A stretch of DNA of 64,000 nt. Origin: a virus (Duplodnaviria; Heunggongvirae; Uroviricota; Caudoviricetes). The position numbers were made by a program. This document shows positions 51,001-54,000 of this stretch, piece after piece; the first letter of the stretch is position 1, and every line of letters begins with the position of its first letter. The stretch lies in the IMG/VR virus record IMGVR_UViG_2703718787_000017; one strand, given 5' to 3'.

Positions 51001-54000
51001 ATAAATTTATAAGCGCAGTCCTGAGCAGCCGGATAATGTTCCAGGAATTGCCAGTGAAATTTTGCTCGAGCACGGCGTTCGTCGCCAGCTTCAATGGCTG
51101 TGGCTACAGCCACAGCGCCTTCTTCCCTTGTTGCCAGTTCGTCAGGAATAGCGGCGCAAATAAAGACTTTACTCATTTTGTTTTAACCTCATGACAGATT
51201 TAAGGATGAACAAATCCCTGCCATTGCTGGCATATAAGAATGAAACCGGATATTTATTACGGAACTGTTTTAAAGACCTGCCGGGATTTCGATATTATCC
51301 TGGTGAATAACTTTATCGACCGGGTAACAGTTACCGGGAATTTTCTGTTCGGTTGCTGCAGTCATACACTCCTGCATTGTCCTGTGAACACTGACTGCAA
51401 TATCAACTGGCACTCCGGAAACAAGAAAAACTGTCAGAACAAGCGCAAATGCTGAATTCATTGTGCACATCCTTTTGGCATCAGACGTAAACGAGCCAGC
51501 ATTGAAACAATGCATATTTTATTTAATAGCTCCCGTTCTTGTTTTCTCTTGTTAATGGCATCTTCAGTAAATACAGGGTTACTGATAGTGACACCAATTT
51601 CAAAACAACCTTCAGACGTATTAACGTTTGGTAATAACGTTTTCATTATCGCGTCCTCAACAATGAATTTTGTGATGCAGTGCCTGGTGCCTCCAGGTGA
51701 CGTTAACCAGTTAACAATTAACGTCGGATACAGAGAATCCACCCATAACACTGTTTTTGGTTTTAACTGTTCCGCGTGCGCTTAGCCGCATTCACCGCAT
51801 CACAAAATTCACTTTAAAAACGGCGGCAGAGCAGTCACGGAGTAAAACTGATACCGCCAAACGTCACCAGAAAATTGATAACAGAGGGCGTTGCAGCGGG
51901 GTTGTCACTTAAGCGTATGGTCAACCTGACAACTCGGTGTCCTCAACGGGGAAGGAATAACCCCGCCATACTTACCGCCGCGCCATTTTGCGGGTTGCCA
52001 CAACCGGAAGCGCACGGTCGAATTAAATTTAACGACACCGTACAGCGAGACGAACTTCGCCGTGCGCTTTCGTGTTGTGTGCCTGCTTTTAACCACGTCA
52101 GGCGAGGTGGTATCCTTAAAATCACCACAGTTTTAAGGATTCATTAAGCAATGTCGCAACCACCAATAAATCCGCTTAAGAACATGAAAATTGATTACTG
52201 GTATAAAGCGCTTACAGTTGTTGGCGCTGCGTTGTTTGTCTTTAATGGAACGTCTTTTTTTGACAGATATCCCGTTGTTCCATTGGGTTTTTTGTCCTCC
52301 GGCATCTTTTTTATTGGTTTGGGGGAGTGGATTAATCACCCTCTCAAAGTGAGATTTATTGGTCCTGGAGTTTGGACTCGTGGATATAATAGTTCTTCGT
52401 GCGCACTCGGTATCATCTTCGACATACTTGGTTGTTTCCTGATTGTTACAGGAGTCGTCAAGTTCTTCTGATGTAAAACCGCAAATGGGGCACGTAACGG
52501 GAATTTTGAAAAGCGTTTCTCAGGGTTCCAGAACAAAATTTTCTGCGGTCTGATTTTGCTTCTCATATTTGTGCTCCGCGTCATTGTGAGAGCACATTCT
52601 TATTCTGAGTGCCTGTTTAAACTCACTGAAGCTGAGAGCTTCTTCGCCTTCGGCAAGGCCTTCGAAGTATTCTTCGTAAGCCTTTTCCATGATTGTGTCG
52701 AAATCCATATCACTCACCTGAGTTTCTTTCCAGCCAGCGACGGGCACCATTTTCGGTTTTAAACGTTTTGCTTTTGGTATACGTCATCGCGGTGAACGTA
52801 CCGTCCTGGTTGGGGAATACGCCACATACCAGAGATTCGTTGTTGCCAAGATCGATAGTATCCATGCTGACCTCATTTCCCCTTAACGCCGGGGTAGCGG
52901 AACTGTTTGCTGAGAACACCGTGCGGTGTCTTGATGGAGGTAATTTAGTTTTCTCATTGTTTTTCGTCAAGGTTTTTTGATGAGAAAACTCAAGTATTGG
53001 CGCAAGATAAAGCCAATACATTGAAATGTAAGGCTTTAAAATTTTGTGAAGGGATGATTATTGATGCTTGTTGCGTTTGCGAGCCTCTAATAGCTCGGTG
53101 AACAGGCGATTAAAATTCTCAACGCGGGCGCGGAGTTCGCTGAGTTGTGCTTGTTGCTCTGATTTAGGAAGTGCGCGATACAAACGCAGCATCTCTAACT
53201 CATCTTCCGATAAGTCTAAGGCACTATCGAGTGAAACAGGGGGAGCTGGTGTTTTGTCCTCGTCGCCAAACAGTATCCAGGTTGGTGAACATTGCAATAC
53301 CTCGGCGAGGCGATGCAAATTTTGCCCGCGCGGGGCTGTATGGTCACTTTCCCATAATGAAATTGATGAGCCAGATACGCCAGCAGCTTTGCTTAAACCG
53401 TTTTGACTTAAGCCTACCTGCTTACGTCTTTCTCTAATGCGTTGACCTAAAGTTTTCTCGTTCATATTTAGATATCTTAATAACCCTTGACTTGAGATTC
53501 CTTGAGTGATTAGCATTGAGAAAACTCAATATTGGAGGTGCGATGTTTAAATCAGACGTAATTAATTTTTACGGTACGAAAGCCAAAGTAGCGAAAGCTG
53601 CTGGCGTTGACCCATCTGCTGTTTCTCAATGGCAAGAGCTGGTTCCTGAAGGTCGCGCGATGCGTCTACAGGAGGCATCTGGCGGCGAGCTTCAGTATGA
53701 TCCCAAGGTTTATGACGAATATCGTAAGACGAAGCGGGCGGGGCGGTTGAACAATGAAAATCACTCCTGAACAGGCTCGTGAGGCTCTGGATGCCTGGAT
53801 ATGTCGACCAGGAATGACACAGGAGCAGGCGACGATATTAATCACTGAAGCATTCTGGGCTTTGAAAGAGCGCCCGAACATCGATGTTCAGCGTGTCACA
53901 GATGAAGGTGGCGCGGTTGATCAGCGAGCGCTTGGCGTTAATCGAGTGAAGATATTCGAACGCTGGAAGGCTATCGACACCAGGGATAAGCGTGAAAAGT

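What the first reader, a model, noticed from the sequence alone, without database searches (positions are those of the whole stretch)
52151..52471. Membrane protein gene antisense to the dicA-dicB early operon (sieB-like position)
Seen: 106-codon AT-rich ORF with hydrophobic helices on the strand opposite to every neighbouring gene, between the small ydfA-like genes and DicF. Known: lambdoid phages place superinfection-exclusion genes such as sieB in opposite orientation within the early-left operon. Inference: candidate exclusion/abortive-infection membrane protein.
Basis: partly seen in the sequence, partly recalled or inferred. Interest (0 to 1): 0.45.

Follow-up and report, generated by a model that had tools for sequence, protein, structure and literature searches.

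The report
Unannotated prophage membrane gene, sieB slot
A real but mostly unannotated 106-codon gene for a small three-helix inner-membrane protein sits backwards inside the early operon of a Qin-type E. coli prophage, exactly where related prophages keep the exclusion gene sieB; its function is untested, and the opposite strand is oddly kept free of stop codons.

Summary
The ORF at 52151-52471 (+) is real. It belongs to an uncharacterised family of about 100-110 aa proteins: at least 477 clusters at 50% identity, with no Pfam, PHROG, NCBIfam, PADLOC or PDB match. It has three TM helices, predicted N-in/C-out, and invariant motifs DYWYKA and GxGEWxNHP at the cytoplasmic face. dN/dS on this frame is 0.12-0.20.

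It lies on a 517-bp cassette (52091-52607) that replaces ydfC of K-12 Qin. 805 of 5426 complete E. coli genomes carry it, mostly unannotated. Its position matches sieB in Rac: repressor, DUF1391 gene, [+ gene], sRNA, division inhibitor. It shows no similarity to SieB.

In seven enteric phage contexts it sits beside the immunity repressor and opposes the early operon. An exclusion or abortive-infection role is plausible but untested.

Unexpectedly, the exact antisense frame stays open across the whole gene in every enteric lineage: 0 of 71 Leu/TCN codons end in A, against 45 of 196 four-fold codons (p=4e-7). Its amino-acid sequence nevertheless evolves almost neutrally. Gene callers usually annotate that antisense ORF instead (phrog_35040, mEp390 gp39).

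The parts
52151..52471 (+). 106-codon gene for a 3-TM inner-membrane protein (RefSeq WP_122990131.1 where annotated). Invariant residues: W17 Y18 K19 A20 G56 G58 E59 W60 N62 H63 P64.
   Evidence: ORF; RefSeq annotation; family and invariant columns; dN/dS 0.12-0.20; AF2 model pLDDT 83.6; loop 61-84 net charge +3.3 across the family, giving N-in/C-out.
52091..52607 (.). 517-bp mosaic cassette, absent from K-12 Qin, where the ydfB 3' end, ydfC and about 120 nt occupy the slot.
   Evidence: blastn against K-12 Qin: the flanks 51200-52090 and 52608-52936 are 96.5-96.7% identical, and the interior has no match.
52088..52116 (+). Putative promoter of the + gene: -35-like TTTAAC (52088-52093), a 17-nt spacer, and an extended -10 TGgTATCCT (52108-52116). 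GTGGTATC is invariant in five diverged lineages and the next two bases are CT in four (TT in L140).
   Evidence: Read by eye from alignments A4/A5 and the upstream sequences. The consensus scan did not call it. This is inference, not demonstrated.
52112..52140 (.). Hairpin ATCCTTAAAA / TTTTAAGGAT. Its 3' arm holds the + gene's Shine-Dalgarno AAGGA (52135-52139) and also the stop codon of the antisense ORF (TAA, 52133-52135 on the - strand).
   Evidence: Predicted fold and consensus structure. The stem top varies as AAAA/TTTT, AAGC/GCTT and AAGG/CCTT between lineages. RNAalifold counts only one compensatory pair, with z = -2.0 (+) and -1.4 (-).
52081..52103 (.). Conserved upstream hairpin GCCTG...CAGGC within the cassette leader.
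   Evidence: Five pairs are invariant in the three sequences of the alignment, and both arms read unchanged in the L139 and L140 upstream sequences. A stem that never varies says nothing either way about structure.
52136..52519 (-). Exact antisense frame open for 128 codons across the whole + gene. In the majority E. coli allele it continues upstream as a 191/205-aa ORF (WP_000344958.1, phrog_35040) fused to the YdfB N-terminus.
   Evidence: Frame map; zero TTA/CTA/TCA codons; PHROG match; RefSeq annotation in UPEC69; 1798 member sequences for the 205-aa form.
52520..52522 (-). TGA stop in the antisense frame, specific to the window's allele (A at 52522). Most genomes have C, giving GGA (Gly).
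   Evidence: In a 71-nt probe spanning the site, only 6 of 803 records are >=99% identical. The difference was mapped to 52522 in strain 2A and in HannyBb. In a sample of 83 sequences, 81 carry C.
52475..52504 (-). Motif IPVTCPICGF of the antisense ORF, just outside the + gene's stop codon.
   Evidence: Conserved in the window, L007, L011/L013 and L140. All four variable sites inside the motif are third positions of the - frame: ATT/ATC/ATA, CCC/CCT, CCC/CCT, TGC/TGT.
52520..52750 (-). YdfB'-fusion ORF, 76 aa in this allele. RefSeq calls part of it a ydfB pseudogene.
51821..51872 (-). DicF sRNA, the neighbouring landmark on the left.
   Evidence: Rfam RF00039, 72.5 bits, E=2.6e-15.

Best explanation
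Part 1, shown. The + ORF is a real gene. It encodes a stand-alone 106-aa inner-membrane protein with three TM helices. A basic beta-hairpin loop (residues 61-84) and both invariant motifs (D15-Y-W-Y-K19, G-x-G-E59-W-x-N-H63-P) lie at the cytoplasmic face, and the C-terminus is outside.

Part 2, shown. The gene travels on a short cassette that moves between lambdoid prophages. In enteric phages the cassette always lands beside the immunity repressor, with the membrane gene pointing against the early lytic operon.

Part 3, inferred. The gene is a 'moron' transcribed from its own weak extended -10 promoter in the repressed prophage. When the early promoter fires on induction, converging transcription and antisense RNA shut it off.

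Part 4, speculative, the part carrying the stated confidence. The product protects the lysogen against other phages, as SieB does from the same slot. It would act alone at the inner face of the cytoplasmic membrane, either blocking genome entry or aborting the infection.
For: Real gene:
- 60 homologues and 477 clusters at 50% identity.
- Invariant motifs.
- dN/dS 0.12-0.20 with near-saturated synonymous sites.
- Within E. coli, 7 synonymous against 10 nonsynonymous SNP sites.
- A conserved SD plus TTG start in the mEp390 and Pantoea copies.

Topology:
- Hydropathy and the AF2 model.
- Positive-inside rule: loop 2 has net charge +3.3 across the family.
- Some homologues carry a Pro/Thr-rich linker and a PsbP_2-like domain after TM3.

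Cassette: present/absent against K-12 Qin, and found in 805 of 5426 E. coli genomes.

Position:
- Same slot as sieB in Rac and lambda.
- Beside a cI-, RacR- or DicA-type repressor and opposed to the early operon in L007, L008, L010, L011-13, L139, L140 and Pantoea L027. In mEp390 it lies on the PR side.
- An S24 repressor also lies nearby in Arcobacter and Kushneria.
- Bcep176 gp33 is the only + gene among 23 - genes.

Acts alone: no conserved partner gene.

Mobile or defence-like surroundings elsewhere: integrases, a relaxase, a transposase and a PDC-S01 candidate defence ATPase.

Promoter-like GTGGTATC core conserved in five lineages.
Against: - No sequence or fold relationship to any known exclusion or defence protein.
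- No transcript, protein or phenotype data were found.
- The promoter is a by-eye call that the consensus scan missed, and no terminator follows the gene.
- In Desulfobulbales the homologue sits in conserved chromosomal synteny next to hydrogenase, MauE and rhodanese genes. That looks like an ordinary cellular membrane protein rather than a defence gene.
- Only one of about ten non-prophage neighbourhoods held a candidate defence gene.
- Frameshifted copies exist (P0006-P0018; Shigella L047).
Confidence: 0.4

Rival explanations
1. The membrane protein is a lysogen-expressed moron that changes host physiology rather than blocking phages. The conserved Asp, Glu, His and Asn at the membrane face suggest an ion, metal or envelope-stress role.
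For: The family is widespread outside phages, in Actinomycetes, Nitrospirales, Polyangia, Phycisphaerae and others. In Desulfobulbales it has a conserved chromosomal setting. It has no defence-database match. The conserved polar residues D15, E59, N62 and H63 sit at the cytoplasmic interface.
Against: The strong and repeated placement next to phage immunity repressors, in the counter-orientation typical of exclusion genes. Its sporadic distribution, 15% of E. coli.
Confidence: 0.25
2. The protein serves the phage's own development, for example by tuning the lysis-lysogeny decision through a host membrane protease such as FtsH, or by modifying the membrane during establishment of lysogeny.
For: It is always in or next to the immunity region. 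In mEp390 it lies between cro and cII, pointing toward cI, where a PRE-like establishment promoter would drive it. Its functional face is cytoplasmic.
Against: Many homologues are not in phages at all. K-12 Qin-type and many related prophages lack it, so it is accessory. No cII-type promoter motif was examined or shown.
Confidence: 0.12
3. The functional product of the cassette is on the other strand, and the + ORF is only its shadow. The other-strand ORF is the 151-205 aa - ORF: phrog_35040, WP_000344958.1, mEp390 gp39.
For: Gene callers overwhelmingly choose the - ORF: 1798 member sequences against 141. It is co-directional with the operon and translationally coupled to ydfA. The - frame is kept free of stops. 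The CPICGF motif shows only synonymous change.
Against: The + frame has dN/dS 0.12-0.20, against 0.68-0.79 for the - frame. + homologues persist at 35-55% identity in taxa where the - frame carries 3-17 stops. The - protein diverges faster than the + protein over the same DNA, about 65% against 87%. - frame nonsense alleles exist while + stays intact: the window allele, L139, and one SNP at 52309.
Confidence: 0.03
4. The main role of the + transcription unit is at the RNA level: convergent transcription or antisense RNA that damps leaky expression of the toxic dicF-dicB operon. The protein would be incidental.
For: No terminator follows the + ORF, so its transcript should run antisense into ydfB, ydfA and the early promoter. 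The P22 sieB locus uses an antisense RNA, sas (paper PMC12197685).
Against: Strong protein-level conservation across phyla. The cassette also sits in prophages without dicF or dicB.
Confidence: 0.05

Closest known systems
SieB (superinfection exclusion B of Rac, lambda and P22; Pfam PF14163)
   Same: Same slot and same reversed orientation inside the early-left operon. In Rac the order is DUF1391 gene, sieB(+), sRNA, division inhibitor, and lambda is likewise reversed. Both are small, hydrophobic, accessory, and present or absent between related phages; phage L lacks sieB where P22 has it (PMC8022706).
   Different: No detectable sequence similarity. 106 aa against 162-184 aa. No in-frame Esc-type internal start was examined. 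sieB's antisense frame carries 7-9 stops, whereas this gene's carries none. The function of this gene is untested.
Lambdoid 'morons' (for example lambda bor and lom) and other prophage membrane exclusion proteins (P22 SieA, lambda RexB, T4 Imm); named from my own knowledge
   Same: An autonomous short cassette inserted between conserved genes and absent from close relatives. It lies opposite to the flanking operon, has a putative promoter of its own, and encodes an inner-membrane product. P22 SieA is an inner-membrane protein sufficient for exclusion (PMC10883804 abstract).
   Different: No terminator was found and the promoter is unproven. There is no homology to any of these proteins.
Antisense overlapping (overprinted) gene pairs, and the P22 sieB/sas antisense arrangement
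   Same: Two long ORFs in exact antisense register, each intact in lineages whose synonymous sites are saturated. One would be read in lysogeny and the other in the lytic operon. P22 uses the antisense RNA sas to switch sieB products (PMC12197685).
   Different: The - frame shows almost no amino-acid constraint in the overlap, with omega about 0.7-0.8 and 4 synonymous against 13 nonsynonymous SNP sites. It is broken in some alleles. No expression data exist for either strand.
Pfam DUF202 (YidH-like small membrane proteins) and DUF7103
   Same: Small multi-TM proteins of unknown function. These were the only Pfam models to appear at all.
   Different: E-values of 2.2 and 0.24, with 9-12 bits against cut-offs of 23-27. 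These are not matches.

Membership tests
SieB (PF14163) | Sequence match to the SieB family | tested here: not met
   No Pfam hit at E<=0.01 or E<=10. BLASTP against K-12 Rac SieB finds no alignment at E<=100.
SieB (PF14163) | Location in the early-left operon, transcribed against it | tested here: met
   Window layout compared with Rac and lambda. Homologues occupy the slot in Rac-type prophages L139 and L140.
SieB (PF14163) | Prophage-expressed abortive exclusion of superinfecting phage | not testable with these tools
   Needs plating assays and transcript mapping. No literature on this protein was found.
Known anti-phage defence systems (PADLOC-DB v2) | Match to any defence protein model | tested here: not met
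   0 families at E<=10.
Moron cassette | Present or absent between otherwise near-identical phages | tested here: met
   517 bp are unique against K-12 Qin, with flanks about 96.5% identical. 805 of 5426 genomes carry it, while 4749 match some part of the surrounding 2.2-kb stretch that includes it.
Moron cassette | Own promoter and terminator | tested here: inconclusive
   A conserved TGgTATCCT extended -10-like element was seen by eye. The consensus scan found no promoter or terminator for it.
Integral inner-membrane protein | Hydrophobic helices long enough to span the membrane, with positive-inside charge bias | tested here: met
   Three segments of 16-21 residues. Loop 2 has net charge +3.3 across 35 family members.
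Antisense overlapping gene pair | Both frames kept open beyond chance | tested here: met
   Zero antisense-aligned stops in the E. coli, L007, Yersinia, mEp390, Pantoea, L139 and L140 copies. Empirical null 5.9-10% per lineage; Fisher p=3.7e-7.
Antisense overlapping gene pair | Purifying selection on the amino-acid sequence of both frames | tested here: not met
   + frame omega 0.12-0.20 and - frame omega 0.68-0.79. Polymorphism in the - frame is 4 synonymous to 13 nonsynonymous. Only the short CPICGF motif outside the overlap looks constrained.
Antisense overlapping gene pair | Transcription and translation of both strands | not testable with these tools
   Needs strand-specific RNA-seq and Ribo-seq in a lysogen, with and without induction.

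The most novel reading that the evidence does not exclude
The cassette is a true two-strand coding unit. The ancient membrane-protein gene is read rightward in the lysogen. In enteric phages, a younger ORF of about 151 aa has been overprinted on its exact antisense frame and is read leftward as part of the early lytic operon. Selection keeps that frame translatable: no TTA, CTA or TCA codon is tolerated in the membrane gene. The reason could be that its product matters, given its conserved N-terminal IPxxCPxCGF motif. Alternatively, ribosomes may have to cover this C-rich antisense RNA to protect the operon's downstream genes (dicF, dicB, exo, xis, int) from Rho-dependent termination. Either way, one stretch of DNA would encode a lysogeny-state product and a lytic-state product whose expression is mutually exclusive.
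Probability: 0.27. Interest if true: 0.75.

Novelty: new variant of a known kind. Interest (0 to 1): 0.5.

Why it matters
About one in seven sequenced E. coli genomes carries this gene, including STEC, UPEC and reference strains such as ATCC 25922. RefSeq usually annotates nothing there, or annotates the opposite strand. PHROGs holds only the antisense ORF, so any screen built on annotated proteins would miss the family.

It is a compact single-gene candidate for a new prophage-encoded protection function in the classic sieB slot. A 400-bp clone would be enough to test it.

The stop-free antisense frame gives a clean natural system for two questions. Do antisense overlapping genes arise in phages? 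Or must operon transcripts stay translated across inserted cassettes?

It also warns that phage 'hypothetical proteins' such as phrog_35040 and mEp390 gp39 may be shadows of unannotated genes on the other strand.

Tried and rejected
1. Homology to known families. Pfam (E<=10), PHROGs, NCBIfam, PADLOC and a PDB profile search were all empty for the + protein.

3. A conserved partner gene. All-against-all BLAST of neighbours in 11 and then 39 loci found none. The only recurrent neighbour is an S24/cI-type repressor.

4. Reverse-transcriptase association (locus L006). The RT best matches a generic RT model, with further hits to Cas1-RT, homing-endonuclease and DRT models, and it sits at a contig break. 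I read it as a group II intron, not a retron partner.

5. The idea that the + ORF is a shadow of the - ORF. Rejected by dN/dS, by distant homologues and by - frame nonsense alleles.

6. The idea that an open antisense frame is a general rule for reversed genes in early-left operons. Rejected: sieB of Rac and lambda have 7 and 9 antisense stops.

7. The leader as a known RNA. Rfam found nothing. Covariation support for the hairpins is weak.

8. Literature. No paper mentions either RefSeq protein accession. The dicBF regulation preprint says nothing on Rho or ydfC. The Nissle 1917 paper concerns the repressor gene only.

9. The IMG/VR scan returned only near-identical E. coli-type copies. It was useful for polymorphism, not for diversity.
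Full report
OBSERVATION. The window holds an ATG-to-TGA ORF of 106 codons at 52151-52471 on the + strand. Its GC is 0.42, somewhat below most of the flanks. It has three hydrophobic stretches. Rfam places DicF at 51821-51872 on the - strand at 72.5 bits. RefSeq annotation of an identical genome (STEC2018-607) lists integrase, excisionase, exonuclease, ydfD and dicB to the left, and ydfB', ydfA and an HTH repressor to the right. All are on the - strand. The ORF is the only + gene, WP_122990131.1, 'hypothetical protein'. The prophage is a fuller homologue of K-12 Qin at the same rspB-side site.

IS IT A GENE? Yes.
- A search of 5.8 billion proteins found 60 relatives.
- A profile search of 1.84 billion representatives found 477 clusters at E<=0.001 and 213 at E<=1e-10. 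Almost all are stand-alone proteins of 95-115 aa.
- Relatives occur in Yersinia, Pantoea, Herminiimonas, Reinekea, Pseudomonas, Shewanella, Arcobacter, Burkholderia, Desulfobulbales, Nitrospirales, Polyangia and Actinomycetes MAGs.
- In a 35-sequence alignment, W17 Y18 K19 A20 G56 G58 E59 W60 N62 H63 P64 G87 G94 are invariant.
- Between the window copy and copies at 57% (L007) and 50% (Yersinia L011) identity, differences fall 0.35/0.21/0.52 on codon positions 1/2/3. dN/dS is 0.12-0.20, and synonymous sites are nearly saturated.
- Among 83 near-identical E. coli-type copies there are 7 synonymous and 10 nonsynonymous variable sites and no indel.

THE PROTEIN. AlphaFold2 with the family alignment gives pLDDT 83.6 and pTM 0.70. 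The model has helices 17-32, 42-62 and 85-105 and a beta-hairpin at 65-79. Across the family the 61-84 loop carries net charge +3.3, while the other loops are neutral or slightly negative. The positive-inside rule therefore puts the N-terminus and the hairpin loop in the cytoplasm and the C-terminus outside. Longer relatives add a Pro/Thr-rich linker after TM3, and one adds a PsbP_2-like domain, which fits an external C-terminus. Both invariant motifs then lie at the cytoplasmic membrane face.

No library recognises the protein:
- Pfam, even at E<=10, gives only non-significant DUF7103 and DUF202.
- PHROGs, NCBIfam and PADLOC give nothing.
- PDB sequence search gives nothing.
- Fold searches give nothing specific.

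THE CASSETTE AND ITS POSITION. Against K-12 Qin, window 51200-52090 and 52608-52936 are about 96.5% identical. The 517 bp between them replace the end of ydfB, ydfC and about 120 nt. 805 of 5426 complete E. coli genomes carry the segment, nearly all at >=99% identity. In a spread sample of 40, 30 had no annotation there on either strand.

K-12 Rac reads racR(-), ydaG(-), ydaF/DUF1391(-), sieB(+), kilS sRNA(-), kilR(-). The window reads repressor(-), ydfA/DUF1391(-), ydfB'(-), ORF(+), DicF(-), dicB(-). The ORF therefore occupies the sieB slot exactly. Lambda sieB is also reversed within the leftward operon.

Diverged homologues keep the same habit with different neighbours:
- Next to an S24 repressor, with YfdP, RdgC or exonuclease genes on the other side (L007, L008, L010).
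- Next to a DicA-like repressor in Yersinia.
- Between Ash/KilR and a RacR-like repressor in two Rac-type prophages.
- Downstream of the repressor in Pantoea.
- Between cro and cII, opposed to the rightward operon, in phage mEp390.
- As the lone + gene among 23 - genes in Burkholderia phage Bcep176.

No partner gene recurs. The only recurrent neighbour is a cI-type repressor, in 8 loci including Arcobacter and Kushneria. Outside phages the surroundings are mostly mobile or variable: integrase, relaxase, transposase and a PDC-S01 candidate defence ATPase. In Desulfobulbales, however, the gene has a fixed chromosomal setting beside hydrogenase, MauE and rhodanese genes.

EXPRESSION SIGNALS. About 80 nt upstream of the start are conserved across copies whose proteins are only 50-57% identical. 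I read TTTAAC, 17 nt, then TGgTATCCT (52088-52116) as a weak -35 with an extended -10. The GTGGTATC core is invariant in five lineages, and the next two bases are CT in four (TT in L140). The consensus scan did not report this site and found no terminator after the gene.

A hairpin at 52112-52140 contains the SD AAGGA. Its stem top differs between lineages while staying complementary, but formal covariation support is weak: one compensatory pair, z about -2. A transcript starting just after the putative -10 would lack the 5' arm and have an open ribosome site, with an MFE of -1 kcal/mol. The mEp390 and Pantoea copies share a conserved AAGGA plus TTG start.

THE OTHER STRAND. The exact antisense frame is open across the whole gene in every enteric copy:
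- Window, 52136-52519.
- HannyBb, 205 aa.
- L007, L008 and L010, about 151 aa.
- Yersinia L013, about 151 aa.
- mEp390 gp39, 151 aa.
- Pantoea, 151 aa.
- L140, 221 aa.

This is equivalent to the membrane gene using no TTA, CTA or TCA codon. In five lineages 0 of 71 Leu/TCN codons end in A, against 45 of 196 four-fold codons (Fisher p=3.7e-7). Only 5.9-10% of 106-codon windows in this window's long ORFs are free of such codons. Non-enteric, low-GC relatives have 3-17 of them.

Yet the - frame protein is barely constrained. Omega is 0.68-0.79 and identity 35-41% where the + protein is 50-67% identical. Polymorphism in the overlap is 4 synonymous to 13 nonsynonymous. The exception is a short motif, IPxxCPxCGF, just outside the + stop codon, whose only changes are synonymous in the - frame.

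The window itself carries a rare TGA in the - frame. In a 71-nt probe across the site only 6 of 803 records are >=99% identical, and the difference maps to A52522. Another lineage has a nonsense codon inside the motif. One sampled copy has a third nonsense change.

Gene callers mostly report the - ORF: 1798 member sequences, phrog_35040, WP_000344958.1 and mEp390 gp39. In one lineage the - ORF runs on into ydfC. sieB of Rac and lambda show no such open antisense frame, with 7 and 9 stops, so this is not a general property of reversed genes in this operon.

I conclude three things. The + gene is the conserved, selected coding sequence. The - frame is kept translatable for a reason not yet known. 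Annotations of the - ORF as 'the' gene are at best incomplete.

MECHANISM. The steps shown are:
- a real gene;
- three TM helices;
- a cassette;
- the sieB slot;
- reversed orientation;
- no partner gene.

The inferred steps are that it is transcribed from its own promoter in the lysogen and silenced by the converging early operon on induction. The P22 sieB locus also relies on antisense control, through sas (PMC12197685).

Speculatively, it protects the lysogen from other phages at the inner membrane. I put this at 0.4. The main rival, a host-physiology moron, is at 0.25. A role in the phage's own development is at 0.12. The - ORF as the only real gene is at 0.03.

NOVELTY AND SCORE. The kind of thing is known: a reversed accessory membrane gene beside the immunity region. 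The family itself is uncharacterised, largely unannotated and common. The stop-free antisense frame is unusual. I rate it a new variant of a known kind, with interest 0.5.

Noticed in passing
L007 5802-5875 (-), L008 3952-4033 (-), L010 3482-3563 (-): ARAGORN calls tRNA-like genes (tRNA-Gly ccc; 82-nt tRNA-Asn gtt) on the operon strand just downstream of the cassette. This is the relative position DicF holds in the window. The window itself has no tRNA. The two share a short motif, CCACAACCGG.
   Followed up: partly
L022 (phage mEp390) 3956-4411; PHROGs phrog_35040; L021 (phage HannyBb) 3983-4600: Deposited phage annotations and a PHROG family describe the antisense ORF, while the conserved membrane-protein ORF on the other strand is unannotated.
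   Followed up: yes
window 52522: The window's A at this base creates a TGA in the antisense frame, and RefSeq then calls ydfB a pseudogene. In a 71-nt probe across the site only 6 of 803 E. coli records are >=99% identical; the rest differ, and the sampled ones carry C.
   Followed up: yes
window 51614-51823 (-): Sub-threshold Rfam match to the sRNA family STnc100 (33.5 bits against a gathering score of 47, E=8e-5). It covers the stretch between DicF and dicB and the start of dicB.
   Followed up: no
window 52010-52067: An 8-bp inverted repeat, GCGCACGG...CCGTGCGC, flanks an AT-rich centre between the cassette and DicF. It lies within the block shared with K-12 Qin (96.5% identity over the block). 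It may be a processing stem for the DicF precursor.
   Followed up: no
window 55968-56633 (+) and 55262-55684 (+): The prophage's early-right region carries an epoxyqueuosine reductase QueH gene and a DUF977 gene. HannyBb's annotators label the DUF977 gene 'Ren-like exclusion protein'. A truncated methyltransferase lies between them.
   Followed up: no
L036, L037, L038 (Arcobacter sp. Pygsuia-1 chromosome): Three loci whose tblastn matches and all neighbouring ORF coordinates coincide each carry the family gene about 1.7 kb from an S24 repressor. This suggests a multi-copy, possibly transposable, prophage.
   Followed up: no
L047 (Shigella flexneri SFBU0723) 3989-4348: The Shigella copy of the membrane gene is a pseudogene with several frameshifts and stops.
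   Followed up: partly
L011 versus L013 (Yersinia enterocolitica), about 130 nt right of the + stop codon: A one-base difference in an A-run shifts the start region of the antisense ORF between two otherwise near-identical Yersinia copies. It could be a sequencing error or a slippage-prone site.
   Followed up: no
P0211 (245 aa, metagenome): In one E. coli-type lineage the antisense ORF reads through the cassette and continues in frame into a YdfC homologue. There the cassette was inserted between ydfB and ydfC rather than replacing ydfC.
   Followed up: partly
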